From: Erysipelothrix larvae
GTDB taxonomy: Bacteria > Bacillota_I > Bacilli_A > Erysipelotrichales > Erysipelotrichaceae
Reading direction: 5' to 3'
Length of the DNA stretch: 32,000 nucleotides
NCBI RefSeq assembly: GCF_001545095.1
Contig: NZ_CP013213.1
Location: 2,160,001 to 2,192,000, forward strand
In this document: piece after piece, positions 611 through 23,161 of the stretch
How positions within the stretch are numbered: position 1 is the first letter of the stretch
Layout of the letters: every line of letters begins with the position of its first letter
Made by a program: the position numbers and the translations under genes
Notes under the pieces: generated by a model
What the model saw: the letters and a program-made list of their open reading frames with translations, nothing else
The model's database searches: none
What the model was told of the DNA's origin: nothing

Positions 611-781
611 AGTGTTCCTCCTGGTTTTTCATAAACTCATTGTAACGGTTGAATCCACTGTAAATCAATTAAATCCGCTAATTTGCACCATGATTTCACA
701 ATTTACTTCTTAGTGCTAAGAGTCATGAAATTTATTTCCACAAGGGTGTGCTATAATAATCTCAAAAGGGAGGCTTTACTA

Positions 782-1750
782 ATGCACAAAGTATTTATTG
801 GTACCTATACAAAGAAAGACAGTAAGGGTATATATACCGCAGATTTTGATTCAAACACCGGGACACTTGGCAATCTTTCATTGCTTGTGGAAACAAATAA
901 CCCTACATATCTGGACACACATAAACCAACAAACCGTTTGTTTAGTGTTGCGGATGTGAATGGACAAGGGGGAATTCATGTATTTGATTTAAACACAACA
1001 CCACCAACACAGGTAGCTACATATGCTCAAGATGGAAATCCACCATGTTATGTACATTATGATGAAGCTACAGACACTACCTTTGACGCAAACTATCACA
1101 TGGGACTCGTTCATGCGTATGAAAAAGGTCTTTTAGATAAAACGTTGCATTATGGTGAAGGGTCTCATGCTCACTATGTAAGAACCCATCCACATACAAA
1201 AGATTTGTATGTGTGTGATTTAGGTCTTGATATGGTTCATAAGTATCGTTTACTCAATGAGATTTCAACCTATATTACACCTAAAGGATTTGGACCGCGT
1301 CACATCGCATTCCATCCAACTCAACCTGTAATCTATGTGTTTGGTGAACTTTCAAGTGAAATCATTGTATTAAAAGATGATGAGTTTGAATTCACTCACA
1401 TCCAAACACTCTCCACACTCCCTGCATCACAACAAGACGTGAAAAGTGGGGCAGCAATTCGCATTTCTGATGATGGAAGATTTGTGTATGCATCAAATCG
1501 TGGTCATGATTCAATCAGTGTCTTTGAAGTCAATGATGATGCTTCATTAACAATGATTCAAAACATTACTGCTGGGGGAAAACACCCGCGTGATTTCGAC
1601 ATCACACCTGATCAAGGTTACTTACTTGTTGCGAATAAAGACACCGATAACATCAGTGTCCTAAAACGTGATAAAGAAAGCGGACTTCTTGAAGTTGTTT
1701 CAACCGATTTCAACGCTCCTGAAGCAGTGTGTGTACATTTCATACGATAA
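782..1750 (+). CDS. pgl: Lactonase family protein (7-bladed beta-propeller, 6-phosphogluconolactonase YbhE/Pgl type)
   Basis: The sequence MHKVFIGTYTKKDSKGIYTADFD...GPRHIAFHP...RISDDGRFVYASNRGHDSISVF...HPRDFDITPDQGYLLVANKDTDNISV is typical of this family. I chose the internal ATG at 782 because AAAAGGGAGG lies 7-8 nt upstream. The track ORF start at 683 has no RBS. Confidence 0.8.
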   Translation: MHKVFIGTYTKKDSKGIYTADFDSNTGTLGNLSLLVETNNPTYLDTHKPTNRLFSVADVNGQGGIHVFDLNTTPPTQVATYAQDGNPPCYVHYDEATDTTFDANYHMGLVHAYEKGLLDKTLHYGEGSHAHYVRTHPHTKDLYVCDLGLDMVHKYRLLNEISTYITPKGFGPRHIAFHPTQPVIYVFGELSSEIIVLKDDEFEFTHIQTLSTLPASQQDVKSGAAIRISDDGRFVYASNRGHDSISVFEVNDDASLTMIQNITAGGKHPRDFDITPDQGYLLVANKDTDNISVLKRDKESGLLEVVSTDFNAPEAVCVHFIR

Positions 1751-1754
1751 CACT

Positions 1755-1785
1755 AAGAACCCACTTGGGTTCTTTTATTTTTATA
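1755..1785 (+). terminator. Rho-independent terminator after the lactonase gene
   Basis: The hairpin aagaaccca/tgggttctt is followed by a T-rich run. Confidence 0.6.
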
Positions 1786-1833
1786 CGGTTCAATTTAGGT
1801 TATAATATTCTTATTATAAATTAGGAGGATTTT

Positions 1834-2673
1834 ATGTTCATCATCGGTTGTCATCAATCATTTTCTAAAGGCTATGCTCACCTTGCAACAGAAGCCAAGT
1901 CAATCAACGCCAATACATTTCAGTTTTTCACACGGAGCCCACGGGGTGGTAAAGCAAAACCTCTAAACATTGAGGATATCCATCAATTCAATACACTTGC
2001 AAACCATTACGGTATTACCCATGTCCTTGCGCATGCACCCTATACCTTAAACCCATGTTCCGATAAGGCGTATGTTCGTGAATATGCCGAGGAAGTGATG
2101 CGTGATGATTTATACCGCATGAGCTTCATTCCTGGTAGTCTCTATAACTTCCACCCTGGAAGTCATGTTGGTCAAGGGGTTGATGTTGCGATTCCTATGA
2201 TCATCGACCACTTAAATCGCATAATCACTGAAGACCAAACAACCATCGTTTTATTAGAAACCATGGCGGGAAAAGGCAGTGAAGTGGGAAGAAGTTTTGA
2301 AGAGCTCGATGCAATTATCCAAGGAATCCACTTCAAAGACAAAATCGGTGTATGCCTTGATACCTGTCATGTGTATGATGCTGGGTATGATATTGTGAAT
2401 GACCTTGATGGTGTTCTTGACGCCTTTGACTCAATCATTGGGTTAAACAAACTTCATGCAATTCATATCAACGACAGCAAAAACCCCTTTGCTTCGCATA
2501 AAGATCGTCATGAGAAGATTGGCCAAGGGTCCCTTGGAATTGATGCCTTCAATCGCATCATTAATCACCCGAAACTCAGACATTTACCATTCTATTTAGA
2601 GACACCCAATGAGATTGAGGGTTACAAACACGAGATTGATCTTCTAAGAAAGCTTCGAAAACATACCACATAA
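1834..2673 (+). CDS. nfo: Deoxyribonuclease IV (endonuclease IV, AP endonuclease)
   Basis: FIIGCHQS...[14 protein letters not shown]...[10 protein letters not shown]...[13 protein letters not shown]...[13 protein letters not shown]...[25 protein letters not shown]...YLETP matches the Nfo metal-ligand motifs. An AGGAGG RBS precedes the start. Confidence 0.9.
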
Positions 2674-2705
2674 CCTCGTTTTCATGACCACTTACCGATA
2701 AAATA

Positions 2706-2734
2706 TTGAGAAGTAGGGTTGATTTTAATATTAT
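2706..2734 (+). promoter_or_regulatory. Sigma-A-type promoter for the LytTR / membrane-protein pair
   Basis: TTGAGA, a 17-nt spacer and TATTAT lie about 20 nt upstream of the AGGAGGAG RBS. Confidence 0.5.
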
Positions 2735-2755
2735 AGAGTCACAGGAGGAGAACCC

Positions 2756-3199
2756 ATGAAAATAAACGTGATTGTCGATGCGAATCACGATTCAGATACA
2801 CTCACAATAACCTGTCATGAGATCACTCCTGAGATTGAAGCATTCATCAAGGAGTATGAAAACCAATCGGTTTTCGCGACACATAGGGGCAATGAGTTTC
2901 CACTCGCATTACAAGACGTTCTGTTCTTTGAGACAGAGAATGAAGTTGTATTTGCACACCTTGTCCATGCAGCCTATCAAACACGATACCGACTGTATGA
3001 ACTGGAATCATTGTTACCCAATCACTTTGCGAGGATATCAAAATCAACAATCGTCAATATTAAAAAAGTAGAGTCAATACAACGGAGTATCGCAACGACT
3101 GTTCGTGAGATACAATTTCATGAATCACATAAAATAGTCTATGTATCCCGTAAGTATTATCCGGTATTGAAAGAGAAAATGGAGGAACGATCAATATGA
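2756..3199 (+). CDS. Stand-alone LytTR-family DNA-binding protein (no receiver domain)
   Basis: The 147-aa protein carries the LytTR pattern ...FPLALQDVLFFETENEVVFAHLVHAAYQTRYRLYELESLLPNHFARISKSTIVNIKKVESI... Its stop overlaps the next start in an ATGA arrangement. Confidence 0.8.
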   Translation: MKINVIVDANHDSDTLTITCHEITPEIEAFIKEYENQSVFATHRGNEFPLALQDVLFFETENEVVFAHLVHAAYQTRYRLYELESLLPNHFARISKSTIVNIKKVESIQRSIATTVREIQFHESHKIVYVSRKYYPVLKEKMEERSI

Positions 3200-3969
3200 T
3201 CAGAAAAAACAAAGGAATTTATTGGGGAATTATCTTAATTCTCATCGCTGTCGCTACATTAGGCATTGCATTTGACCTTATTACAGGAAATGTTACCAAA
3301 CTTATTTGGTCATTCTTACTGGGTGGCGTTGTACTCATTAACCTCGTTGAATTATCATGGGGAGGGGTATTCTTCCCATTGGCAATTATCGCCCATATCT
3401 ACCGACCTGAACTTTCAATCCCACGAGGTTCTATGTGGGCAGTTTATACCGCAGCCTTACTGCTAACCATTGGGTTCCAAATGATTTCGCGTAACTTCAG
3501 GTCAAAAAAAAGAAAACGTGGATTCAAAGTTAACGTAGATGGCGAAGATATCTATGTAAGTGGAAAACATGTAAAAGATAAAGTAAAAGAATCCGTAGGT
3601 GGCTTTGGAAGTTCTTATTATGAAGAAAACGAAGGTGAAATTGTTTACGTTGAAAACAACTTCGGGGATGCTTCTCGGTATGTAAATTCCATAAACCTCA
3701 AGCGTGCAGAAGTGGAAAATAACTTCGGAAACCTTCGGGTTTACTTTGACAACGCGGTCTTCTCACCATCTGGTGCAACCATTAAAGTTGATTGTAACTT
3801 CGGGAAAACAACACTTTATTTACCCCGTGATGTGAACATCATTAATAATGTGACTACATCCTTGGGTGCTGTGACAGGAAGTGGTAATCGTGCAAGTGTT
3901 GAAGGTGCGCCTACAGTCGTCGTTGATGGTGATGCAGCATTTGGTAATATCGATATTGTCATAATCTAA
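3196..3969 (+). CDS. Membrane protein with about 4 TM helices and a C-terminal LiaF-like (DUF2154 / toast-rack type) repeat domain
   Basis: The N-terminus has hydrophobic helices (GIILILIAVATLGIAF, LLGGVVLINLV, VFFPLAIIAHIY, AVYTAALLLTIGF). A basic linker RSKKRKRG follows. Then come repeated beta-strand units VENNFGDA / VENNFGNLRVYF / VDCNFGKTTLYLP. Confidence 0.7.
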   Translation: MIRKNKGIYWGIILILIAVATLGIAFDLITGNVTKLIWSFLLGGVVLINLVELSWGGVFFPLAIIAHIYRPELSIPRGSMWAVYTAALLLTIGFQMISRNFRSKKRKRGFKVNVDGEDIYVSGKHVKDKVKESVGGFGSSYYEENEGEIVYVENNFGDASRYVNSINLKRAEVENNFGNLRVYFDNAVFSPSGATIKVDCNFGKTTLYLPRDVNIINNVTTSLGAVTGSGNRASVEGAPTVVVDGDAAFGNIDIVII

Positions 3970-3981
3970 GGGTTCATTCCT

Positions 3982-4018
3982 AAAAGGCCTAAAATCTTGT
4001 ATTTCAGGCCTTTTTTTC
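3982..4018 (+). terminator. Rho-independent terminator
   Basis: The stem aaaaggcct...aggcctttt is followed by a T7 run. Confidence 0.65.
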
Positions 4019-4153
4019 ATAAGAAGAATCCGTATATCATTGAGATCACAAACAAAAAAAACCAATCCTTTCCTAAGTATTTATAAGTGCATCACATTCA
4101 AAAAGTGTCGCACAATATCATGAAAAGGATCAGTTATTGGTTTTATCAGTTCG

Positions 4154-4876
4154 TTATAAACGGGCCACATCTAACATTCCTTGCAAAAGCAAGACGAGGT
4201 TTACTTCAAAATCACGGTATAGATAGTTGCGTATATATCGTGTATTTCCACCTGTGAGAATCCACGTACACTCAGATCCAAGTTCAATTTCGATGCGCAT
4301 TCCTACACCTTCAATTGCGCCTATCGCTCCATATACAGCACCATTAAGCATATTTGTCTCTGTGGATGTTGCGATGACTTTATCGACATTGATTTCGTCA
4401 ACCTCTGGAAGCAAGTCTGTGCGCTTATGAAGCGATTCCAAACCCATTCTTAATCCTGACAAAATCAAACCCCCTTGAAACTTATCTTGATTTACGACTT
4501 GAATGCTCGTCGCGGTTCCTAAATCAAAAACAATAAAAGGTTGTGGGTAACGGTTCATTGCTGCATAGGCAGTTAATGCTCGATCAAGCCCCAATTGCGT
4601 TGTGTAACACGTGATGTCCAGTGGAACATCCTTAAGTTCTAAAATCCGCACCTCGCATTCAAATACGGATTTAATAATATCAATTAATCTTTCGTCTTGA
4701 CTGGGTACCACACTTGCGAGAAGGCATGCTTCAATCTCATACGTCTCTTTTATTTCTAACAACAATTGTCGGATTCCCGATTCATCAACACGTCTGATTT
4801 TTTCAAACAATATGACATCCTCTTCGCCAACGCCCAATGTCACATTGGTATTTCCTGCGTTCATACATAATTTCAT
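4154..4876 (-). CDS. coaX: Type III pantothenate kinase (CoaX/Baf family, ASKHA fold)
   Basis: Three ASKHA-type motifs are present: N-terminal MNAGNTNVTLGV (PHOSPHATE-1-like), FDLGTATS (PHOSPHATE-2-like) and LTGGN. The gene sits directly after coaC. Confidence 0.8.
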   Translation of the reverse strand: MKLCMNAGNTNVTLGVGEEDVILFEKIRRVDESGIRQLLLEIKETYEIEACLLASVVPSQDERLIDIIKSVFECEVRILELKDVPLDITCYTTQLGLDRALTAYAAMNRYPQPFIVFDLGTATSIQVVNQDKFQGGLILSGLRMGLESLHKRTDLLPEVDEINVDKVIATSTETNMLNGAVYGAIGAIEGVGMRIEIELGSECTWILTGGNTRYIRNYLYRDFEVNLVLLLQGMLDVARL

Positions 4877-4877
4877 A

Positions 4878-5399
4878 CTACATAACTTCAGCTAGGATTG
4901 TCTCTACCGTAGCCATAGCCCCTTTCCCTACATCTCTACATGCTAATAATGTAGACCGCGGTTCTATAATGGTATATCCAAGTTTCTCAAGCTTTAGCAA
5001 GTTCTCTTGCATTACTGGGTTTTCATACATACGAGTATTCATTGCAGGTGCAATGTATTTTTTGAGCTCATGCCCTGCAAGCGCGACCGTTGAAACGATT
5101 TCATCCGCAATACCATTTGCAATCTTACCAATGATGTTTGCTGTAGCTGGTGCAATTAAGAGTACGTCTGCCTCTTTCACTAAGTCAATATGTTCAATGC
5201 GTTGTGGGTCTGGTTCTACCATAACATCAGTATTAACATAATTCTTTGAGAGCACTTGTAGTGTCATAGGGGTAATAAACTCCGTTGCCGCCTTGCTCAT
5301 AATCACATGGACCTCATGTCCTTCTTTGGTAAAGGAATTTGCTAAATCAGCCGCCTTATAGGCAGCGATACTTCCTGTTACTCCTAATATAATTCGCAT
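4878..5399 (-). CDS. coaC: Phosphopantothenoylcysteine decarboxylase (flavoprotein, stand-alone CoaC)
   Basis: MRIILGVTGSIAAYKAADLANSFTKEGHEVHVIMSKAATEFITPMTLQVLS...PATANIIGKIANGIADE is the typical HFCD flavoprotein pattern. Confidence 0.85.
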   Translation of the reverse strand: MRIILGVTGSIAAYKAADLANSFTKEGHEVHVIMSKAATEFITPMTLQVLSKNYVNTDVMVEPDPQRIEHIDLVKEADVLLIAPATANIIGKIANGIADEIVSTVALAGHELKKYIAPAMNTRMYENPVMQENLLKLEKLGYTIIEPRSTLLACRDVGKGAMATVETILAEVM

Positions 5400-5401
5400 A
5401 A

Positions 5402-6127
5402 TTATTTAACCCTTTCTGAAATCTTTGCGACTAACCCTGCAGCAATCGCTTGTTTTGTTTGGAATGTCTTGTATGTATGGTCATCTTGGATTAAATGACC
5501 AATATGGTTATCACCTTTAATATTCACAAGATCGTTTGCAAGAACGAAATCACAGTGGTTCTTCATTAATAACTTATACCCAACATCAATGAGCTCAGTT
5601 TCACTGACATCAACGAGCAGTTTAAATCCAACTAAAATCACATCACTTCTGAGATCTTTGATCATGGGAATAATTTTCGGTGCCGGCTTCAACAAAACCG
5701 CAAGTCCTGATTCATTCGATCCAATTTTATGTACACGATCAAAGCCATGTTCTTCAAATGTATTCAATATATGCACAACATCTTTTTTTGTCTTGTTTTC
5801 GATATGATTTGCGAGCTGTTCGAAGTTGGATACTGAGGATACAAAGTAATCACTCACAGCCATTGCATGAATTACACCAACAACGTCTGGGTCCATTAAT
5901 GCAGCCTTCATTTCTCTTTCTAAATCTAGAACACCTTCTACTGGTATTTTGAGTATGTCACCGTTTGGGATATATGCATGAACACCGTGGATATAGATTA
6001 CGTCATAACCACTTTGAGCGAATGCCTCAGCACAGAGTTGACCTAATCTTCCGCTTGAGGTGTTCGACAACGTACGCACATTATCGATGTGTTCGCGCGT
6101 TCCACCTGATGTGATGATTATCTTCAT
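5402..6127 (-). CDS. coaB: Phosphopantothenate-cysteine ligase (stand-alone CoaB)
   Basis: MKIIITSGGTREHIDNVRTLSNTSSGRLG...AMAVSDY...KIGS is the DFP/CoaB pattern. A 2-nt gap separates it from coaC. Confidence 0.85.
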   Translation of the reverse strand: MKIIITSGGTREHIDNVRTLSNTSSGRLGQLCAEAFAQSGYDVIYIHGVHAYIPNGDILKIPVEGVLDLEREMKAALMDPDVVGVIHAMAVSDYFVSSVSNFEQLANHIENKTKKDVVHILNTFEEHGFDRVHKIGSNESGLAVLLKPAPKIIPMIKDLRSDVILVGFKLLVDVSETELIDVGYKLLMKNHCDFVLANDLVNIKGDNHIGHLIQDDHTYKTFQTKQAIAAGLVAKISERVK

Positions 6128-6289
6128 AGCAACCTCTTTCTTTATCTTTGTCTATTATATCATAGCATTATATTGATTCCCTAAAGATTACTTTCAACTG
6201 ATTTTCGGTAGTTTGTTAATGGTTTATTATTTTTATCAAGCACCACCCAATTTTACACCTTTATTTTTGATTTTTTTTGCCATTTCATC

Positions 6290-6318
6290 TTGTTTTTTCA
6301 TCTAGAGATTGGTATAAT
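6290..6318 (+). promoter_or_regulatory. Sigma-A-type promoter of tRNA-Leu
   Basis: TTGTTT, a 17-nt spacer and TATAAT end about 20 nt upstream of the tRNA 5' end. Confidence 0.55.
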
Positions 6319-6339
6319 CAATAAGCAGTACAAAATAAT

Positions 6340-6423
6340 GCGCGTGTGGTGAAATTGGCAGACACACTAGACTTAGGATCTAGCGCCTTTGGCATGGGGG
6401 TTCGAGTCCCTTCACGCGCACCA
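6340..6423 (+). tRNA. tRNA-Leu (anticodon UAG), class II with long variable arm and encoded CCA
   Basis: I folded the cloverleaf by eye. The acceptor stem is GCGCGTG/CACGCGC. The anticodon stem CTAGA/TCTAG encloses the loop CTTAGGA, giving anticodon TAG. There is a long variable arm, a GGTTCGAGTCC T-arm and a terminal CCA. Confidence 0.9.
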
Positions 6424-6432
6424 ATTGACATC

Positions 6433-6457
6433 AACCCCACAAATTGTGGGGTTTTTA
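6433..6457 (+). terminator. Rho-independent terminator after tRNA-Leu
   Basis: The stem ccccac/gtgggg is followed by TTTTT. Confidence 0.7.
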
Positions 6458-6697
6458 TTATCTAATTGCACAAAGGGTGTACAAACTGATCCATGTTCTC
6501 GTAATATGGTTCATACACTACGACTCAAACACGGCAATATTTCTTACATTTCCTTTACATCATTCACTATGCATAATAAAATATGGTTATATATATTTAT
6601 CCTCTATTTGATATTACTTCCGTCATTTCATTGTGACATTTTAAGTCATATAGACTTCTCCTTTATTATAGTCGCTCAATGCGACAGGAGGATAAAA

Positions 6698-8110
6698 ATG
6701 AAACATAACATTCGAACTAAGAAATGGTTCATTATTCAGTTAATTCTGATTACACTTGTATCAATGACTTGGCTATTGATATTGACAATTCCATTGGGCA
6801 TCCTGCTCATCAAAAATTACCTGAAAGAGTTAAACAAAATTGGTCCAGTTTTAGAAATGTACCCACATTTAGAAAGTCTAGAAATACAGAAAGATTCACT
6901 TTATTCACAGATTCAAGACCTTAAGGACCAAGTCCCTGATATTGAACGAGAGAACCTTGCTATACTCGAAGATAAAAAATCCGAGCTTGAGAATCGCTGT
7001 CAATATTATGAAAAACAGATTGAAGCTCTAAAAGATGAGAAATCCAGTCTACTTGAACAAACAAAAACACTTGAATCGTACCTCAACACTGATTTCGTGG
7101 ATACTCATTTTGATCTTGAGGACATTCATTCAGAAGAAATCCAAAATCAAGTTGCACTCTTGAGAACTGAAGTAAAACGTATCATTAACGACACGATTCA
7201 ACAAACAAGCAACGTCAAAGTGTCCATACAAGCTTCGATGAAAGATCAGTATCGCAAACTGTTCCGGCTGTTTATCGGTGAAACTGATTCATACATTGAG
7301 AAAGCTACACCAAAGAATATTGATACCCAACGCTCACGAATCATGAAACTCTACGATTCGCTTAATGCCCTCTTTAAAAATGATGGAATTAGTTTAGATT
7401 CTGACCTTCTCAAACTAAAGCTTGAAGAACTTGCAAAGATCCATCTGTATAATGTTCGTAAGGAACAAGAGCGTGAAGAGCAAAAAGCAATAAAAGAACA
7501 AATGCTCGAAGAAGCAAAAGCAGAACGTGAACTAGAGCAAGCGAAACGCGCAATTGAGAAGGAAATTACGCAATTTAGTAATGAATCAAAAAAATTATTT
7601 GATTATCTCAATAAAGCAAACTCAGATGTTGAAAGAGAAATCTACGTCACTAAGATAAAAGAACTAGAGCATAAACTTAATCAACTCCAACTCGATAAAA
7701 AAGACGTTGAGAACCGTCAACTAAATACCAGAGCTGGCTACATCTATATCATTTCAAATATAGGTTCTTTCGGTGAAAACATCTATAAAATCGGCTTGAC
7801 GCGACGCCTTGAGCCTATGGATCGTGTAAGGGAGTTAGGCTCTGCTTCTGTTCCTTTTGAATTCGATGTTCACGCTATGATTTTCTCTGATGATGCACCC
7901 CAACTTGAAGCAACGCTTCACAATACATTTAAAGAGTTCCAAGTTAATCGAGTCAACACAAGAAAAGAATTCTTTAATGTAAGTTTGGAACAAATCGAAC
8001 GTGTTGTAAAAGAACATCATAATGCAACGGTCACATTTACCATGAAAGCACAAGCAGTACAATACTATGAGTCTCTAAGAATTCTAAAACTCAAGGAGAA
8101 ACAGTCCTAA
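6698..8110 (+). CDS. Membrane-anchored coiled-coil protein with a DUF4041-like region and a C-terminal T5orf172/MUG113 (GIY-YIG superfamily) domain
   Basis: The ATG at 6698 is preceded by GACAGGAGGA. The track ORF start at 6389 would overlap the tRNA and its terminator. The N-terminus has a hydrophobic segment, WFIIQLILITLVSMTWLLILTIPLGILLI. About 330 aa of E/K/L-rich heptad-like sequence follow. The C-terminus reads GYIYIISNIGSFGENIYKIGLTRRLEPMDRVRELGSASVPFEFDVHAMIFSDDAPQLEATLHNTF...RKEFF. Confidence 0.8.
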   Translation: MKHNIRTKKWFIIQLILITLVSMTWLLILTIPLGILLIKNYLKELNKIGPVLEMYPHLESLEIQKDSLYSQIQDLKDQVPDIERENLAILEDKKSELENRCQYYEKQIEALKDEKSSLLEQTKTLESYLNTDFVDTHFDLEDIHSEEIQNQVALLRTEVKRIINDTIQQTSNVKVSIQASMKDQYRKLFRLFIGETDSYIEKATPKNIDTQRSRIMKLYDSLNALFKNDGISLDSDLLKLKLEELAKIHLYNVRKEQEREEQKAIKEQMLEEAKAERELEQAKRAIEKEITQFSNESKKLFDYLNKANSDVEREIYVTKIKELEHKLNQLQLDKKDVENRQLNTRAGYIYIISNIGSFGENIYKIGLTRRLEPMDRVRELGSASVPFEFDVHAMIFSDDAPQLEATLHNTFKEFQVNRVNTRKEFFNVSLEQIERVVKEHHNATVTFTMKAQAVQYYESLRILKLKEKQS

Positions 8111-8121
8111 AATAACAAAAA

Positions 8122-8170
8122 GAAAACGCGCAGATGTTATCACATTCGATAATATCCTACGCGTTTTTTT
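8122..8170. terminator. Probable bidirectional terminator between convergent genes
   Basis: An imperfect stem aaaacgcgcag...ctacgcgtttt has an A-run on one side and a T7 run on the other. The loop is long, about 23 nt. Confidence 0.45.
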
Positions 8171-8171
8171 A

Positions 8172-11150
8172 CTACCTAGTTTTCTTTCTACGAATTTCAC
8201 TAATTAGTAGACACAATCCACCGATTAAAACTAAGCCTGCACTTAAGGCTACAGTGGAATTTTGTCCTGTATTTGGTAGCTCTCCTATATTCTTTGAACT
8301 ACCATTCCCTAGATTAGTAAGTTGGTTATCTGACTTACCTTTAGCGATTACCTTAACATCAGTCACTGGAGCTTCTGCTGAATTACCAGTTTCTGGTGTT
8401 TCTCCTGGATCTACTTCTTCACCTGGGTTACCTGTTTCTTCTGGATTGCCTGTTTCTGGTGTTACGCCTGGATCTACTTCTTCACCTGGGTTACCTGTTT
8501 CATCTGGATTGCCAGTTTCTGGTGTTTCACCTGGATCTACTTCTTCACCTGGGTTTTCTGTTTCTTCTGGATTTCCTGTTTCTGGTGTTTCGCCTGGATC
8601 TACTTCTTTACCTGGGTTACCTGTTTCATCTGGATTACCAGTTTCTGGTGTTTCGCCTGGATCTACTTCTTCACCTGGGTTACCTGTTTCTTCTGGATTG
8701 CCAGTTTCTGGTGTTTCACCTGGATCTACTTCTTCGCCTGGGTTACCTGTTTCTTCTGGATTACCTGTTTCTGGTGTTTCGCCTGGATCTACTTCTTCAC
8801 CCGGGTTTTCTGTTTCTTCTGGATTACCTGTTTCTGGGTTTTCACCTGGATCTACTTCTTCACCTGGGTTTTCGGTTTCTTCAGGATTTCCTGTTTCTGG
8901 TGTTTCTCCTGGGTCTACTTCTTCACCTGGGTTTTCGGTTTCTTCTGGATTACCAGTTTCTGGTGTTTCGCCTGGATCTACTTCTTCGCCTGGGTTACCT
9001 GTTTCTTCTGGATTGCCAGTTTCTGGTGTTTCTCCTGGGTCTACTTCTTCACCTGGGTTTTCTGTTTCTTCTGGGTTTCCAGTTTCTGGTGTTTCTCCTG
9101 GGTCTACTTCTTCGCCTGGGTTTTCTGTTTCTTCTGGATTACCAGTTTCTGGTGCTTCTCCTGGATCTACTTCTTCGCCTGGGTTACCAGTTTCTGGTGC
9201 TTCTCCTGGACCTACTTCTTCACCTGGGTTTCCTGTTTCTTCTGGATTGCCTGTTTCTGGTGTTTCTCCTGGGTCTACTTCTTCACCTGGGTTTTCTGTT
9301 TCTTCTGGATTACCTGTTTCTGGTGTTTCACCTGGATCTACTTCTTCACCTGGGTTTTCTGTTTCTTCTGGATTACCTGTTTCTGGTGTTTCGCCTGGAT
9401 CTACTTCTTCACCTGGGTTTCCGGTTTCTTCTGGATTGCCTGTTTCTGGTGTTTCGCCTGGATCTACTTCTTCACCTGGGTTTCCTGTTTCTTCTGGATT
9501 GCCTGTTTCTGGTGTTTCACCTGGGTCTACTTCTTCACCTGGGTTTTCTGTTTCTTCTGGATTACCTGTTTCTGGTGTTTCACCTGGATCTACTTCTTCA
9601 CCTGGGTTACCTGTTTCTTCTGGATTGCCTGTTTCTGGTGTTTCACCTGGATCTACTTCTTCACCTGGGTTTTCTGTTTCTTCTGGATTACCAGTTTCTG
9701 GTGTTTCACCTGGATCTACTTCTTCACCTGGGTTTTCTGTTTCTTCTGGATTACCAGTTTCTGGTGTTTCACCTGGATCTACTTCTTCACCTGGGTTTTC
9801 TGTTTCTTCTGGATTGCCAGTTTCTGGGTTTTCGCCTGGATCTACTTCTTCACCTGGGTTTTCTGTTTCTTCTGGATTACCTGTTTCTGGTGTTTCGCCT
9901 GGATCTACTTCTTCACCTGGGTTACCTGTTTCTTCTGGGTTTCCTGTTTCTGGTGTTTCATTACCATCTCCAGGATTACCTGTCTCTGGAAATTCTTCAG
10001 GAGGTAACGCTTCTTCCTCTTCTTCTCCAGCGTCAGTGCTTAAGTCAATATTGAGGATAATTCCTTCATTATATCCACGCTCATCAAATGCTTCATCTGT
10101 ATATAAGTAAGGCTTAACTTCCAATGTTTCTTGGTTATAATCTTCTGTAATTCTAAATAACTGTGTTGCTGAATAATCACGATTTGGATTTACGAATATC
10201 CATGCGTTATTTCTAAAGACTTTGATTGCAAAGTGAGAATCGTTAACGTACCAATCTGATGCGGTTGATTCAAGTTCGGTTTTTGTTTTGACTTGGTCAT
10301 CGACAAGTTCAAGACCTTGTGCTTCTAATCCCATCCATAACTTTCGGTTCGCTATTGAACTATTGTTTGTAACTGCAACCGTTAATTCAACAAGATCACC
10401 AGGTTTTAACCCCTCAGTAACATTTGCAGATACTTCGATATCTGATGTTTCATAATTTGGATAAACAGTTTTTGTAACAGCTGTTCTATTTTTAATATCA
10501 TCAGTATACCAGCTGAGAGATCCTTGGTAATTTTGGTATGTTGCGGATTTGTACGGCGTTCCTTCTACGACTAAATACCGGAATTCAATCGGTGCTGATT
10601 GTCTCATCTCATAGAATGTTCGTGTTTCACGAATATCAACTTTACCATTGTATGTATTTAGGAATTCATAGTACAAGATATTTGGTAGTGCTCCACCGTT
10701 ATTTTCTTGTGCCCATTCATATAATTCTTCACGGGTTATCACGGCATATTCTTGGCCATCATCGGGCAAGAATATAATATCTTTTATGATACTTCTAGTC
10801 GATCCATTTTCCAAATATCCATAGATTCGAATTGCGACCCCATGGTCATCTTCATCTGCAACTGCATCGAATCGAGGAAGAATGATTTCTTGTATCTCTT
10901 GAGTCGAATCAATTGCTTCAGTGTAATAATCAAATCTTAGGTTTTTTAATCCGGTCGAATTACTGAAGTTGATTCCGTCGAGTTTCACAACCATATCATC
11001 TCCAAATCGTACCGTTTTTCTTGATCCTGTTAAGGTCATAGTGGTTTTAGGTGTTTCAGGGAATTCTGATTCATCTTCTGCAAATACAATTGCGGTCATA
11101 TTCAGCATAACCACAAATGTCGCTACGAGTAATCCAAGTAACTTTTTCAT
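8172..11150 (-). CDS. LPXTG-anchored cell-wall surface protein with a long acidic tandem-repeat stalk (992 aa)
   Basis: The signal peptide is MKKLLGLLVATFVVMLNMTAIVFA/EDE. A globular region of about 390 aa contains an Ig-like segment, ANVTEGLKPGDLVELTVAVTNNS. About 25 copies of a 21-aa unit follow. The C-terminus has LPNTG, a hydrophobic helix and RRKKTR. An AAGGAG RBS lies 8 nt upstream. Confidence 0.9.
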   Translation of the reverse strand: MKKLLGLLVATFVVMLNMTAIVFAEDESEFPETPKTTMTLTGSRKTVRFGDDMVVKLDGINFSNSTGLKNLRFDYYTEAIDSTQEIQEIILPRFDAVADEDDHGVAIRIYGYLENGSTRSIIKDIIFLPDDGQEYAVITREELYEWAQENNGGALPNILYYEFLNTYNGKVDIRETRTFYEMRQSAPIEFRYLVVEGTPYKSATYQNYQGSLSWYTDDIKNRTAVTKTVYPNYETSDIEVSANVTEGLKPGDLVELTVAVTNNSSIANRKLWMGLEAQGLELVDDQVKTKTELESTASDWYVNDSHFAIKVFRNNAWIFVNPNRDYSATQLFRITEDYNQETLEVKPYLYTDEAFDERGYNEGIILNIDLSTDAGEEEEEALPPEEFPETGNPGDGNETPETGNPEETGNPGEEVDPGETPETGNPEETENPGEEVDPGENPETGNPEETENPGEEVDPGETPETGNPEETENPGEEVDPGETPETGNPEETENPGEEVDPGETPETGNPEETGNPGEEVDPGETPETGNPEETENPGEEVDPGETPETGNPEETGNPGEEVDPGETPETGNPEETGNPGEEVDPGETPETGNPEETENPGEEVDPGETPETGNPEETENPGEEVDPGETPETGNPEETGNPGEEVGPGEAPETGNPGEEVDPGEAPETGNPEETENPGEEVDPGETPETGNPEETENPGEEVDPGETPETGNPEETGNPGEEVDPGETPETGNPEETENPGEEVDPGETPETGNPEETENPGEEVDPGENPETGNPEETENPGEEVDPGETPETGNPEETGNPGEEVDPGETPETGNPEETGNPGEEVDPGETPETGNPDETGNPGKEVDPGETPETGNPEETENPGEEVDPGETPETGNPDETGNPGEEVDPGVTPETGNPEETGNPGEEVDPGETPETGNSAEAPVTDVKVIAKGKSDNQLTNLGNGSSKNIGELPNTGQNSTVALSAGLVLIGGLCLLISEIRRKKTR
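8385..9960 (-). repeat. Tandem array of about 25 copies of a 63-nt unit encoding PGEEVDPGETPETGNPEET(E/G)N
   Basis: I measured the period directly: ggatctactt recurs at 8407 and 8470, which is 63 nt. Units are near-identical, with a few wobble changes and the G/E variant. One unit near 9150-9230 is shortened. Confidence 0.95.
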
Positions 11151-11469: not shown

Positions 11470-13176
11470 CTAGCTTTTTTTTCGATGCATTGCGTTACTT
11501 AACATGCATGCTATACCCATGAGGATCATACCAGCATATAGCGTAAACTGTGACTTTTGTCCTGTGCTTGGTAGCTCTTGATCATCCTTTGATGTTTCAT
11601 TCTTTTCGATAGATTGATCTTCATCACTATCTTTTGAAGCAGTATCATTCCCTGTTTCCAGGTCATTTCCTTGTTCATCACTTGGATTAGCAGGAGTATC
11701 AACCGATTCATTTGATGGACTCTCAGGAATTTCTACAGGAGATTCTACAGGTAAAGACGGCACTTCAACTTCTTCACTGTTTTTTCCACCTTCATCAGGA
11801 GTTTGTGTTTCTGGTGTTTCGGCTGGTTCTTCTACTTCTTCACTGTTGTTTCCACCTTCATCTGGGGTTTGTGTTTCTGGTGTTTCGGTTGGTTCTTCAA
11901 CGTCTTCACTATTGTTTTCACCTTCATCAGGAGTTTGTGTTTCTGGTGTTTCGGTTGGTTCTTCAACGTCTTCACTATTGTTTCCACCTTCATCAGGGGT
12001 TTGTGTTTCTGGTGTTTCGGTTGGCGTTTCTGTTTCTGTCTCTTGTTCTTCAGGTTCTTCGGCCTCAACATCCACATACACTGTCAACCCGTCGTTGTAC
12101 TCTCTTTCATCAAATGCACCATTGGCGAATAAGTATGGTAACACTTCAAGGGTTGGTTGATTGAAGTCTTCTGTAATTCTAAATAATTGCGTCACTGAGT
12201 ATTCATCAGTTGGACTTATTGTTATCCACGCACCATTTTTGTATAGAGGTGTATTCAAAAAGTTTCCACTAACACGCCAGTCTTCGGGAGTTAATTGCAG
12301 ATCGATTCTTGATTGGCTTTCTACTGAAACAGGTTCTAGACCACTTGCTTCAAGACCCATCCATAGGAATCGATTGGTGAGGGAACTATTATTTTTAACC
12401 TTTATACTGAGTTCTACAAGATCGCCTGGTTTAAGTCCTTCTGTTACATTTGCAGTTACCTCTATATCAGATGTTTCAAAATAAGGATAAACACTTTTTA
12501 AGACTGATGTCCGATTGTTGACATTAGTTGTATACCAGCTAAGTTCTCCTTGGTAGAGTTGATACACTGCACCATTATAAGGCGTTCCTTCTACTACTTT
12601 ATAGTGAAATTCAAACGGTGCAGATTGGTACATATCGTAAAATACGCGTGTCATTCCATAATCAATCTCTGTATTTTTCATATTTGAAAAATTGAAGAAC
12701 AGTTTGGTTGGTAGATTACCATAATTGTTTTCTTGCGACCATTCCAACAGCTCAGCTCGTGTTATTTCAACACGTTCTTGTCCATCATCGGGTAAAAACT
12801 TGATATCTTTTACAATGCGTAGCGATGATCCATTTTGGACAATGGCCATAATACGAATCATTACACCATGATCATTACCATCCGCTCGTGCATCGAAACG
12901 AGGAATGACAATTTTTTGTAATTCTTGAGTTGTATCGATTACTTCAGTAAAATAATCGAACTTAAGATTTTTAATTCCAATTGAGTTCTTAAAATTTATT
13001 CCGTCTAATTTCACAACCATATCGTCACCAAATCGTACCGACTTTCGTGATCCGGTTAAGGTCACCACTTTTTCAGGTGAATCTGGATACTCTGAAACTT
13101 CGTCTGCAAATATATAAGCGGTCATATTTAGCGTTCCAATGAGTAACGCGCAAAATAAAGCAACGGTCTTTTTCAT
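11470..13176 (-). CDS. LPXTG-anchored cell-wall surface protein, paralog of 8172..11150 (568 aa)
   Basis: The signal peptide is MKKTVALFCALLIGTLNMTAYIFA. The N-terminal region aligns by eye with the neighbour, for example VTLTGSRKSVRFGDDMVVKLDGINF, VVEGTPY and ANVTEGLKPGDLVEL. Four 22-aa acidic repeats follow, then LPSTG, a hydrophobic helix and HRKKS. Confidence 0.9.
   Translation of the reverse strand: MKKTVALFCALLIGTLNMTAYIFADEVSEYPDSPEKVVTLTGSRKSVRFGDDMVVKLDGINFKNSIGIKNLKFDYFTEVIDTTQELQKIVIPRFDARADGNDHGVMIRIMAIVQNGSSLRIVKDIKFLPDDGQERVEITRAELLEWSQENNYGNLPTKLFFNFSNMKNTEIDYGMTRVFYDMYQSAPFEFHYKVVEGTPYNGAVYQLYQGELSWYTTNVNNRTSVLKSVYPYFETSDIEVTANVTEGLKPGDLVELSIKVKNNSSLTNRFLWMGLEASGLEPVSVESQSRIDLQLTPEDWRVSGNFLNTPLYKNGAWITISPTDEYSVTQLFRITEDFNQPTLEVLPYLFANGAFDEREYNDGLTVYVDVEAEEPEEQETETETPTETPETQTPDEGGNNSEDVEEPTETPETQTPDEGENNSEDVEEPTETPETQTPDEGGNNSEEVEEPAETPETQTPDEGGKNSEEVEVPSLPVESPVEIPESPSNESVDTPANPSDEQGNDLETGNDTASKDSDEDQSIEKNETSKDDQELPSTGQKSQFTLYAGMILMGIACMLSNAMHRKKS
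11759..12025 (-). repeat. Tandem array of 4 copies of a 66-nt unit encoding ETPETQTPDEGGNNSE(D/E)VEEP(T/A)
   Basis: ggtgtttc recurs at 11813 and 11879, which is 66 nt. The protein repeat is visible in the ORF translation. Confidence 0.85.
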
Positions 13177-13470: not shown

Positions 13471-13917
13471 ATGGCGTCAATAATACTGTTTGCTGAGGGA
13501 ACTCAGATGGTAAAGCTAGAGTTAGAATCATTTGATTCACACTTTGAAGCCCTACCTACTCAATTTACAACACGGTATACATTACGACTCAATATCGTGT
13601 CTTCAATGTATACAACATCACATTCGCTTGATTTCTATAAGCGTAATCTCGAGGATTTCCTGAGTGGACTAAAGAAAGTATATGCAACATGCTCAGGGTC
13701 AATACGTCTCAGTAACGGCTTTTATGATCATGATTTTTTGCTTGTCATCGAAAGTTACGAGACAACTGGCGCAATGCGCTTTGATCTCAATCTTTATAAT
13801 CGTTGTGTACACGATCCTGAAGGTAGCGGCGATCGTCTTTCAATGACTCGTATCATAGATCAATCTACCCTTCCAAACATCATTTATTCACTAGAACAGT
13901 TCTTATCAAACACTTAA
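13471..13917 (+). CDS. Hypothetical cytoplasmic protein, 148 aa, no recognised domain
   Basis: The ATG is preceded by AAAAGGGGGA, and a terminator follows the ORF. There is no signal peptide and no TM segment. Confidence 0.6.
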   Translation: MASIILFAEGTQMVKLELESFDSHFEALPTQFTTRYTLRLNIVSSMYTTSHSLDFYKRNLEDFLSGLKKVYATCSGSIRLSNGFYDHDFLLVIESYETTGAMRFDLNLYNRCVHDPEGSGDRLSMTRIIDQSTLPNIIYSLEQFLSNT

Positions 13918-22848: not shown

Positions 22849-23161
22849 CCACATATCCCCCGGTAACCTACATACTCCATAGGGTACTCCATAAATAATA
22901 TCAAAGATAACATACGCAAACAATATGCTTAACCCTTCTCAATTCGATGTTCTATGGATCATGGATGGGGTTTTCATTAATAGATATAAGTTAATATTAT
23001 GAATATAGAAGGATGTTCTAGCAAGTTGTGATATAATCCTTTTATCACAAAATACATTGACGGGATCATCAATTTGATGAAATGATGATATGGATTGCAG
23101 TATAGTCTTGATTATTTTCTCAGGATTATCCACCCCGTTTCACAGTTTAAAGGAGCACACA

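What the first reader, a model, noticed from the sequence alone, without database searches (positions are those of the whole stretch)
6698..8110. Membrane-anchored coiled-coil protein with a DUF4041/T5orf172 (GIY-YIG-like) module next to tRNA-Leu: candidate single-gene conflict or anti-phage factor
What the sequence shows:
- The 470-aa ORF has a strong RBS and sits directly downstream of a stand-alone tRNA-Leu and its terminator.
- It starts with a hydrophobic anchor of about 29 residues.
- About 330 aa of charged, heptad-like sequence follow, for example LESLEIQKDSLYSQIQDLKDQ... and EQEREEQKAIKEQMLEEAKAERELEQAKRAIEKE.
- The C-terminus reads GYIYIISNIGSFGENIYKIGLTRRLEPMDRVRELGSASVPFEFDVHAMIFSDDAPQLEATLHNTF...RKEFF.

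That C-terminus is the hallmark of the T5orf172/MUG113 branch of the GIY-YIG superfamily. In that branch it usually follows a DUF4041 region.

To my knowledge this architecture has no experimentally established role. Nuclease-like domains fused to long coiled coils and placed in variable loci next to tRNA genes are a recurring pattern in phage-defence and abortive-infection genes. The transmembrane anchor is an unusual addition. It would place the putative nuclease domain at the membrane.
Basis: partly seen in the sequence, partly recalled or inferred. Interest (0 to 1): 0.7.

Follow-up and report, generated by a model that had tools for sequence, protein, structure and literature searches.

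The report
SNIPE (PD-lambda-1) anti-phage nuclease homologue
This gene encodes a membrane-anchored DNA-cutting enzyme of the SNIPE (PD-lambda-1) family, a bacterial defence already shown in E. coli to cut phage DNA as it is injected, so it is an ordinary member of a system published between 2022 and 2026.

Summary
The described ORF is real: window 6698-8110 (+), 470 aa, with an AGGAGG ribosome-binding site, directly after tRNA-Leu(TAG) and its terminator.

- **Architecture.** It has a 29-residue uncharged N-terminal anchor, long helices, DUF4041 and a C-terminal T5orf172/MUG113 (GIY-YIG-type) domain.
- **Family.** It matches the PADLOC PD-Lambda-1 models almost end to end (E = 6e-114 and 4e-105). 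It is 40% identical over residues 133-470 to an E. coli phage protein annotated PD-lambda-1. That protein carries all nine residues named in the SNIPE paper. The catalytic Glu (E. coli E414) is conserved here as E404.
- **Published function.** PD-lambda-1 was found in a 2022 E. coli screen. [quoted passage not shown] That is direct defence, not abortive infection. Streptococcus thermophilus homologues also protect against phages.
The anti-phage guess was correct. The claims that the architecture has no established role and that the membrane anchor is unusual are out of date.
- **Locus.** The window is Erysipelothrix larvae chromosome. The gene stands alone among housekeeping genes, at a synteny break right after the tRNA, with no defence island.

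Interest is low. The one open detail is the membrane topology of this Firmicutes-type anchor.

The parts
6340..6423 (+). tRNA-Leu (anticodon TAG). This is upstream context and a landmark of the synteny break, not part of the defence gene.
   Evidence: ARAGORN. Rfam tRNA, 55 bits. The same tRNA lies next to coaB in the uncultured relatives L036 and L037.
6433..6453 (+). Intrinsic-terminator-like hairpin ending the tRNA transcript.
   Evidence: Scan result: 9-bp stem with 5 GC pairs, followed by a T-run.
6554..6582 (+). Sigma-70-like promoter candidate for the defence gene (TTTACA, 17 nt, TAAAAT).
   Evidence: 10 of 12 consensus matches. This is a consensus match only. The scan found no more sites than in shuffled sequence.
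6686..6691 (+). Ribosome-binding site AGGAGG, 6 nt upstream of the ATG.
   Evidence: Read directly from the sequence.
6698..8110 (+). SNIPE / PD-lambda-1 homologue, 470 aa (E. larvae AOC36_10035, annotated 'hypothetical protein').
   Evidence: ORF and translation. PADLOC PD-Lambda-1 at 6e-114 and 4e-105, near full length. PHROG 1847 at 2.6e-127. 100% identical to P0001 from E. larvae. 40% identity, E = 2e-69, to the E. coli phage PD-lambda-1 protein.
6725..6811 (+). N-terminal membrane anchor, aa 10-38 (WFIIQLILITLVSMTWLLILTIPLGILLI). It is flanked by MKHNIRTKK on the N side and KNYLKELNK on the C side.
   Evidence: Hydropathy and uncharged-run analysis. A related anchor motif (WYLQTWF...P...G) is conserved in relatives. 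AF2 models it as part of one helix, aa 8-129.
6812..7084 (+). Membrane-proximal long helix, aa 39-129. This is the poorly conserved N-terminal 'adapter' region.
   Evidence: AF2 helix with pLDDT 88-95 over aa 61-120. It does not align with E. coli SNIPE by BLASTP. The SNIPE paper reports very low conservation of this region.
7103..7432 (+). DUF4041 (Pfam PF13250, labelled 'SNIPE' in the precomputed Pfam annotation) helical module, aa ~136-245. The Pfam core is aa 188-241.
   Evidence: Pfam 3.2e-9, 37 bits against a cut-off of 27. AF2 helices at 145-172, 175-201 and 208-225. The region aligns with E. coli SNIPE, and R190, F192, E195, N207 and N223 are conserved.
7433..7726 (+). Long charged linker helix, aa 246-343.
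   Evidence: AF2 helices 235-306 and 310-343. Many invariant or near-invariant charged residues.
7730..8017 (+). C-terminal T5orf172/MUG113 (GIY-YIG-type) nuclease domain, aa 345-440.
   Evidence: Pfam 7e-20 and 5.5e-18. The domain-only AF2 model has pLDDT 85.4 with beta-beta-alpha-beta-alpha order. The top Foldseek PDB hits are GIY-YIG proteins, but with non-significant E-values. Invariant residues are Y350, G366, R369, R370, R376, E404, N417, N420 and E424, and Y363 is nearly invariant (>=90%).
7907..7909 (+). Codon GAA for E404, the counterpart of the catalytic E414 of E. coli SNIPE.
   Evidence: BLASTP alignment. Invariant in 74 sequences. The E414A substitution abolishes defence and toxicity in E. 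coli (PMC13190303).
8120..8170 (.). Bidirectional intrinsic terminator shared with the convergent LPXTG gene.
   Evidence: RNA fold of -21.5 kcal/mol, z = -6.0, with 0 of 200 shuffles as stable. An A-run lies upstream and a U-run downstream.

Best explanation

**Proposed mechanism, by homology.**
- The N-terminal hydrophobic segment anchors the protein constitutively in the cytoplasmic membrane.
- The rest of the protein projects into the cytoplasm. It consists of the variable membrane-proximal helix, DUF4041, a long linker helix and the GIY-YIG-type nuclease.
- When a siphovirus injects its genome, DUF4041 and the N-terminal region engage the entry machinery (tape-measure protein and host entry factors) and the incoming DNA. 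The nuclease then cuts the phage DNA as it enters.
- Membrane sequestration keeps the nuclease off the chromosome. The cell therefore survives, which makes this direct defence rather than abortive infection.

**Shown here.** Family membership by sequence, the full domain architecture, and an intact catalytic and conserved residue set.

**Inferred from published work on E. coli and S. thermophilus homologues.** The activity, the target and the topology of this particular protein.
For: - **PADLOC.** PD-Lambda-1 models match at E = 6e-114 (aa 60-468 against model positions 58-478 of 491) and 4e-105 (aa 14-468 against 9-477 of 496).
- **Pfam.** DUF4041, T5orf172 and MUG113 all score above their cut-offs. 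The precomputed Pfam annotation labels PF13250 'SNIPE'.
- **E. coli reference.** The PhiR26_1 CDS annotated 'PD-lambda-1' is 500 aa. It has every residue named in the SNIPE paper: E223, N250, L253, W257, E264, K305, I308, T319 and E414. The window protein aligns to it at 40% identity over aa 133-470 (E = 2e-69).
- **Key residues.** E404 aligns with the catalytic E414. R212 aligns with E223, the site where E223K enhanced defence and where K/R is said to be common in homologues.
- **Conservation.** E404 and the GIY/YIG-like Y350, G366 and R369/R370/R376 are invariant in 74 sequences, and Y363 is nearly invariant (>=90%).
- **Anchor.** It is conserved in relatives. C-flank K/R exceeds N-flank K/R in 53 of 75 sequences, which fits a cytoplasmic C-terminus.
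- **Structure.** The AF2 architecture matches the published description of an elongated protein with TM, DUF4041 and nuclease.
- **Literature.** Mechanism in E. coli (PMC13190303). Discovery (PMC9519451). S. thermophilus homologues give more than 3 logs of protection and occur in 27 of 263 genomes (PMC12322248).
- **Prophage copies.** They sit in lysogeny modules: between integrase and cI in Javan476, and next to an Abi-like gene in phi5218.
Against: - No experiment exists for this protein or for any phage of E. larvae.
- A S. thermophilus allele 98.5% identical to an active one was inactive. Activity therefore cannot be assumed from homology.
- The N-terminal 132 residues do not align with E. 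coli SNIPE, so the partner or specificity is unknown.
- This protein has 4 K/R before the anchor and 3 after it. The positive-inside rule therefore does not clearly predict the N-out/C-in topology shown for E. coli.
- The fold-level match of the nuclease domain to solved GIY-YIG structures is not statistically significant (E = 0.4-1.5). There is no PDB relative by sequence.
- The locus is not a defence island.
Confidence: 0.8

Rival explanations
1. It is an abortive-infection or toxic effector. On this view the nuclease is released or activated on infection and degrades host as well as phage DNA, killing the cell.
For: GIY-YIG/T5orf172 nucleases occur in toxic contexts. SNIPE lacking its TM is highly toxic and cuts the chromosome in E. 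coli. In S. suis phage phi5218 a homologue sits next to an Abi-like gene.
Against: Full-length E. coli SNIPE lets infected cells survive and grow at high multiplicity of infection, unlike the Abi control PD-lambda-3. The window protein keeps the anchor that prevents autoimmunity.
Confidence: 0.07
2. It is an inactive or relic copy. On this view the gene was acquired horizontally, has lost its original mobile-element context, and no longer protects against phages that E. larvae meets. It might instead be kept for another membrane-proximal DNA function.
For: - The gene stands alone among housekeeping genes, with no integrase or att repeat.
- It is found in a single genome. The next-best homologue is only 61% identical over 76% of the length.
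- Near-identical S. thermophilus alleles differ between fully active and inactive.
Against: - The ORF is intact and has an RBS, a promoter-like site and a terminator.
- All family-invariant residues are retained, including the catalytic E404.
- GC content of 34-37% is close to the flanking 37-41%.
Confidence: 0.1
3. It has the same domains but a different topology or mode of action from E. coli SNIPE. For example, the 29-34-residue anchor of the Firmicutes subfamily could be a re-entrant hairpin (N-in/C-in), or a signal-anchor that places the C-terminus outside. The protein would then meet phage DNA or the entry machinery differently.
For: - The anchor is long (median 32 uncharged residues) and contains a Pro in 65 of 75 sequences.
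- K/R residues lie on both flanks, and this protein has 4 on the N side against 3 on the C side.
- Five relatives carry a Cys4 zinc ribbon before the anchor, a domain type that is normally cytoplasmic.
Against: - AF2 models one straight helix through the anchor, not a hairpin.
- At family level the C flank is more positive (53 of 75 sequences), as expected for C-in.
- An extracellular nuclease could not reach DNA inside the tail tube or membrane channel.
- E. coli SNIPE is experimentally N-out/C-in.
Confidence: 0.12
4. It is a homing-endonuclease-like selfish gene. T5orf172-type domains are found beside tRNA genes in phage T5.
For: It has a T5orf172/GIY-YIG-type domain and lies next to a tRNA gene.
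Against: A membrane anchor, about 330 aa of helical scaffold and DUF4041 are not features of homing endonucleases. The protein matches PD-Lambda-1 models along its full length. A tRNA or tmRNA lies within about 2 kb of the homologue in only 4 of 34 related loci.
Confidence: 0.01

Closest known systems
SNIPE / PD-lambda-1 of E. coli (Vassallo et al. 2022, PMC9519451; Saxton et al. 2026, PMC13190303)
   Same: - It is a single gene.
- It has the same domain order: N-terminal membrane anchor, helical region, DUF4041, long linker helix, C-terminal GIY-YIG-type (T5orf172) nuclease.
- It is 40% identical over the C-terminal 338 residues.
- The catalytic Glu (E414, here E404) and the DUF4041 core residues are conserved.
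   Different: - The N-terminal 132 residues are unalignable.
- The anchor is longer (29 against about 19-24 residues) and is preceded by four K/R residues instead of an uncharged MTQTP tail.
- The host is Gram-positive (Erysipelotrichia), with no outer membrane. Which host entry factor it would use is unknown; lambda uses ManYZ in E. coli.
- The gene is chromosomal and solitary rather than phage-borne.
- It is untested.
PD-Lambda-1 homologues of Streptococcus thermophilus (PMC12322248) and streptococcal prophages (Javan476, EJ-1, phi5218)
   Same: - The hosts are also Gram-positive Bacillota.
- The prophage homologues are 48-50% identical over 70-79% of the protein.
- phi5218 has a similar anchor, and all have the same C-terminal domain.
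- An S. thermophilus allele gives more than 3 logs of protection, and the gene is accessory there, present in 10% of genomes.
   Different: - The streptococcal prophage copies lie in lysogeny modules, and the S. thermophilus copies are accessory chromosomal genes. The E. larvae copy has no mobile-element context.
- I could not retrieve the tested S. thermophilus sequences, so identity to them is unknown.
Zorya and Kiwa (membrane-associated defences acting at phage entry)
   Same: Both are membrane-localised defences that act at or just after genome injection. The SNIPE paper discusses them as functional analogues.
   Different: Both are multi-protein systems with unrelated domains. There is no sequence relationship; PADLOC gave no Zorya or Kiwa hit for this protein.
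PDC-S57 (PADLOC candidate) and stand-alone T5orf172/MUG113 proteins
   Same: They share the C-terminal nuclease-type domain (PADLOC PDC-S57 at 2.3e-19 over aa 345-453).
   Different: The match covers the nuclease domain only. No DUF4041 or anchor region aligned.

Membership tests
SNIPE / PD-lambda-1 | Near full-length match to the family's profile models. | tested here: met
   PADLOC PDLC03976 at 6.4e-114 (aa 60-468 against 58-478 of 491) and PDLC03977 at 4.2e-105 (aa 14-468 against 9-477 of 496).
SNIPE / PD-lambda-1 | Central DUF4041 (PF13250) domain. | tested here: met
   Pfam 3.2e-9, 37 bits against a cut-off of 27, aa 188-241. The region aligns with the E. coli protein's DUF4041 region.
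SNIPE / PD-lambda-1 | C-terminal GIY-YIG-type nuclease domain with the catalytic Glu (E414 in E. coli). | tested here: met
   T5orf172 at 5.5e-18 and MUG113 at 7.2e-20. E404 aligns with E414 and is invariant in 74 sequences.
SNIPE / PD-lambda-1 | N-terminal membrane-targeting region, with a TM within the first 70 aa in about two thirds of homologues. | tested here: met
   29 uncharged residues at aa 10-38, Kyte-Doolittle maximum 2.51. This is hydropathy only. No dedicated TM predictor was available.
SNIPE / PD-lambda-1 | N-out / C-in topology, with the nuclease in the cytoplasm. | tested here: inconclusive
   K/R counts are 4 on the N flank and 3 on the C flank for this protein. Across the family the C flank is more positive in 53 of 75 sequences. 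AF2 shows a single straight helix. This needs DeepTMHMM or reporter fusions.
SNIPE / PD-lambda-1 | Single-gene system with no obligatory partner. | tested here: met
   The gene has its own promoter-like site, RBS and terminator. Its neighbours are a tRNA and a convergent LPXTG gene.
SNIPE / PD-lambda-1 | Protects against phage by cleaving DNA during injection (direct defence). | not testable with these tools
   Shown only for E. coli SNIPE. Protection has also been shown for S. thermophilus homologues.
GIY-YIG nuclease superfamily | GIY-YIG alpha/beta fold with a three-stranded sheet. | tested here: inconclusive
GIY-YIG nuclease superfamily | Motif residues: Tyr of 'GIY', Tyr-x-Gly of 'YIG', a conserved Arg, a metal-binding Glu and a conserved Asn. 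| tested here: met
   G347-Y348-I349-Y350, Y363-K364-I365-G366, R369/R370/R376, E404 and N417/N420 are all invariant or nearly invariant. Assigning these residues to the canonical motif roles rests on my knowledge of the superfamily.
Defence island / mobile-element cargo | Neighbouring defence genes, integrase or att duplication. | tested here: not met
   No PADLOC hit in the 10 neighbouring proteins that had no Pfam domain or lay in the far part of the window. Pfam shows housekeeping functions for the other neighbours. There is no second copy of the tRNA 3' end.

The most novel reading that the evidence does not exclude
The subfamily of this protein's closest relatives (all identifiable ones are Bacillota) has a distinctive anchor.

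- It is 29-34 uncharged residues long.
- It has a conserved W-Y-L-Q-T-W-F...P...G motif.
- Basic residues lie on both flanks.
- In some members a zinc ribbon precedes it.

This anchor may insert differently from E. coli SNIPE, for instance as a re-entrant N-in/C-in hairpin. It may also dock on a Gram-positive-specific phage-entry factor. Either would be a topological or specificity variant of SNIPE rather than a simple orthologue.
Probability: 0.12. Interest if true: 0.35.

Novelty: already known. Interest (0 to 1): 0.15.

Why it matters
The finding adds little that is new. It places a SNIPE homologue in Erysipelothrix larvae, class Erysipelotrichia. It also shows that a reader working from raw sequence independently inferred a function that was published between 2022 and 2026.

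Its practical value is modest.
- The genome record still calls the protein 'hypothetical', so the annotation can be corrected.
- This Gram-positive subfamily has a conserved, unusually long anchor. It would be a reasonable test case for how SNIPE specificity and topology vary outside E. coli.

Tried and rejected
- **Exact-sequence look-up.** I looked up the window protein and the neighbouring CoaB in the contig collection. Neither is on record, so the source genome could not be compared with other isolates.
- **Genome scan for relatives.** It found no near relatives; the best was 45% identity, in Clostridia and Lachnospiraceae. CoaB's best non-self homologues are only about 50% identical. The 'variably present in close relatives' test could therefore only use distant uncultured relatives.
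- **Integration scar.** A search for the tRNA 3' end with up to 3 mismatches found only the tRNA itself. An 18-nt imperfect direct repeat (6323-6340 and 8052-8069, 83%) lies partly inside conserved coding sequence, and I judge it a chance match.
- **Defence island.** Rejected. No PADLOC hits in 10 neighbours, and the other neighbours have housekeeping Pfam domains.
- **PDB sequence and profile searches.** They returned only coiled-coil noise, or nothing.
- **Rfam scan of 6100-8300.** Only the tRNA was found. The 274-nt upstream region contains no leader or riboswitch.
- **Hairpin anchor.** AF2 does not support it; the model shows a single straight helix.
- **S. thermophilus sequences.** The supplement gives only accession numbers, so identity to the tested alleles could not be computed.
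Full report
**Observation.** It spans window 6698-8110 (+), starts at ATG and encodes 470 aa. AGGAGG lies at 6686-6691, 6 nt before the start.

It follows tRNA-Leu(TAG) at 6340-6423 and a terminator-like hairpin at 6433-6453. A promoter-like site (TTTACA, 17 nt, TAAAAT) is at 6554-6582. A very stable hairpin at 8120-8170 (-21.5 kcal/mol, z = -6.0) is flanked by an A-run and a U-run. It forms a bidirectional terminator shared with the convergent downstream gene. Rfam finds only the tRNA in 6100-8300.

**Anatomy of the protein.**
- Residues 10-38 are 29 consecutive uncharged, mostly hydrophobic residues. They are preceded by MKHNIRTKK and followed by KNYLKELNK.
- Pfam places DUF4041 at aa 188-241 (3.2e-9) and T5orf172/MUG113 at aa 347-439 (5.5e-18 and 7.2e-20). 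All are above the curated cut-offs.
- An AlphaFold2 model built on 74 sequences has mean pLDDT 82.5. It shows one continuous helix over aa 8-129, a helical module over 145-225, a long helix over 235-343 and a beta/alpha domain over 347-440.
- A domain-only model of aa 340-470 has pLDDT 85.4 and a beta-beta-alpha-beta-alpha order.

**What it is.** PADLOC's two PD-Lambda-1 models match almost end to end, at E = 6.4e-114 and 4.2e-105. PHROG 1847 matches at 2.6e-127.

A tblastn search of phage genomes found an E. coli phage (PhiR26_1) CDS annotated 'PD-lambda-1'. Its 500-aa product carries every residue named in the SNIPE paper: E223, N250, L253, W257, E264, K305, I308, T319 and E414. I therefore used it as the E. 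coli reference.

BLASTP gives 40% identity over window aa 133-470 (E = 2e-69). Window E404 lies opposite the catalytic E414. Window R212 lies opposite E223, the site where E223K enhanced defence. The first 132 residues do not align, which agrees with the published statement that the N-terminal region is very poorly conserved.

In a 74-sequence alignment the following are invariant: Y350, G366, R369, R370, R376, E404, N417, N420 and E424. Y363 is nearly invariant (at least 90%). I assign these to the GIY / YIG / Arg / Glu / Asn roles from my knowledge of the GIY-YIG superfamily. The precomputed Pfam annotation labels PF13250 'SNIPE'.

**What is known about the family.**
- PD-lambda-1 was recovered in a functional selection for anti-phage genes in the E. 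coli pangenome. [quoted passage not shown]
- Saxton et al. (Nature 2026, PMC13190303) renamed it SNIPE.
- They showed a single-pass, N-out/C-in inner-membrane topology.
- E414A and deletion of DUF4041 both abolish defence. Deleting the TM makes the protein a toxic, chromosome-cutting nuclease.
- DUF4041 promotes DNA binding.
- The protein cleaves phage DNA during injection. [quoted passage not shown]
- Defence is direct, so the cell survives, unlike with an abortive-infection control.
- Among 474 homologues, 59% have one predicted TM and 7% have two, all within the first 70 residues.
- S. thermophilus homologues were tested. One allele gave more than 3 logs of protection, while an allele 98.5% identical to it gave none. 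The system occurs in 27 of 263 genomes (PMC12322248).

The domain reading and the anti-phage guess were right. The statements that the architecture has no established role and that the anchor is unusual are out of date. The abortive-infection option is not what the E. coli experiments show.

**Host and locus.** The protein is 100% identical to 'hypothetical protein AOC36_10035' of Erysipelothrix larvae, on a 2.495-Mb contig (taxonomy). The next-best homologue is 61% identical over 76% of the length. Typical full-length relatives are 43-47% identical, and the ones I could place (genome-scan loci) come from Lachnospiraceae and other Clostridia. At least 7,864 proteins match at E <= 1e-10. Forty-four phage records and 199 plasmid records carry homologues.

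The neighbours in the window have housekeeping functions:
- a lactonase and an AP endonuclease 2 family protein;
- a LytTR regulator and a LiaF-like protein;
- type III pantothenate kinase, CoaC and CoaB;
- an LPXTG surface protein;
- a GH1/PTS cellobiose-type operon;
- AsnA, Tex and others.

None of the 10 neighbouring proteins that had no Pfam domain or lay in the far part of the window hits a PADLOC model. There is no integrase and no second copy of the tRNA 3' end. GC content is 34-37% in the gene against 37-41% in the flanks.

Uncultured relatives, with CoaB 47-51% identical, keep the block lactonase ... CoaC-CoaB. Two of their three contigs keep tRNA-Leu(TAG) beside CoaB; the third ends there. 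Past the tRNA, the two contigs that include it carry a small ORF, a Y-family polymerase and a LexA-like gene instead of a SNIPE homologue.

Synteny therefore breaks exactly at the tRNA. That fits an acquired gene, but these relatives are too distant to show variable presence within the species. In 34 related genomic loci a tRNA or tmRNA lies within about 2 kb of the homologue in only four, so tRNA adjacency is not a family trait. Prophage copies sit in lysogeny modules.

**Open detail: topology of the anchor.** Across 75 sequences the anchor is unusually long, with a median of 32 uncharged residues. It contains a Pro in 65 of 75. In about half of the sequences it starts with a W-Y/F motif (consensus WYLQTWF).

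The C flank carries more K/R than the N flank in 53 of 75 sequences. This fits a cytoplasmic C-terminus, as in E. coli. The window protein is one of 12 exceptions, with 4 against 3. Five relatives also have a Cys4 zinc ribbon before the anchor.

AF2 models a straight helix, not a hairpin. I cannot run a topology predictor, so the topology of this protein remains inferred. This is the only place where something non-standard could hide. I give it about 12%.

**Verdict.** This is an untested homologue of a published system (SNIPE / PD-lambda-1). Standard defence-annotation models recognise it.
- Best explanation: a membrane-anchored GIY-YIG-type nuclease that cuts phage DNA at entry. Confidence is 0.8, limited mainly by the allele-specific activity seen in S. 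thermophilus.
- Novelty: already known.
- Interest: 0.15.

Noticed in passing
window 8172-11150 (-); shadow ORFs 8134-10110 (+) and 8396-10054 (+): A 992-aa LPXTG-anchored surface protein lies here. About 25 tandem 63-bp repeats (8373-9960, ~90% matches) encode an acidic PETGNPEETENPGEEVD-type region. The long plus-strand ORFs over the same repeats are antisense artefacts.
   Followed up: partly
window 11470-13176 (-) and 21394-22923 (-): Two large ORFs (568 aa and 509 aa) have no Pfam or PADLOC match at E <= 1e-3. Their function is unknown.
   Followed up: partly
window 683-6423; loci L036 7758-13248, L037, L039: The block lactonase, AP_endonuc_2, LytTR, LiaF-like, (PanK-III), CoaC, CoaB is syntenic in uncultured relatives whose CoaB is about 47-51% identical. 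tRNA-Leu(TAG) follows CoaB in L036 and L037. Synteny ends right after the tRNA. L036 and L037 carry an 81-aa ORF, a Y-family polymerase (IMS) and a LexA-like S24 peptidase there.
   Followed up: partly
proteins P0020, P0026, P0035, P0038, P0039 (homologues, not in the window): Some SNIPE homologues carry an N-terminal Cys4 zinc ribbon (PF13240) before the membrane anchor. Others (P0052, P0055, P0057, P0094, P0100) have 2-4 hydrophobic segments in all. A normally cytoplasmic zinc ribbon on the opposite side of a single TM from the nuclease is a topological puzzle.
   Followed up: partly
L041 2276-3604 (Javan476); L042 2093-3505 (phi5218); L035 2596-4098 (PhiR26_1): Prophage-borne homologues occupy accessory-gene (moron) positions: between integrase and the cI-like repressor in S. 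pyogenes Javan476, next to an Abi-like gene in S. suis phi5218, and between Rha and Ren in the lambdoid E. coli phage PhiR26_1. The annotated Javan476 CDS starts at a TTG inside the anchor, so its start is probably mis-called.
   Followed up: partly
window 6323-6340 and 8052-8069: An 18-nt imperfect direct repeat (15 of 18) brackets the tRNA plus the defence gene. The second copy lies in conserved coding sequence, so this is probably chance.
   Followed up: no
window 13471-13917 (+): A 148-aa ORF has a weak, sub-threshold match to the WapI-like immunity protein family (E = 4e-4, 21 bits against a cut-off of 27).
   Followed up: no
window 4154-6127 (-): CoA biosynthesis genes appear as separate coaB (DFP C-terminal domain) and coaC (flavoprotein) genes, followed by a type III pantothenate kinase. 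CoaB's closest non-self homologues are only about 50% identical, which shows how isolated E. larvae is in current databases.
   Followed up: partly
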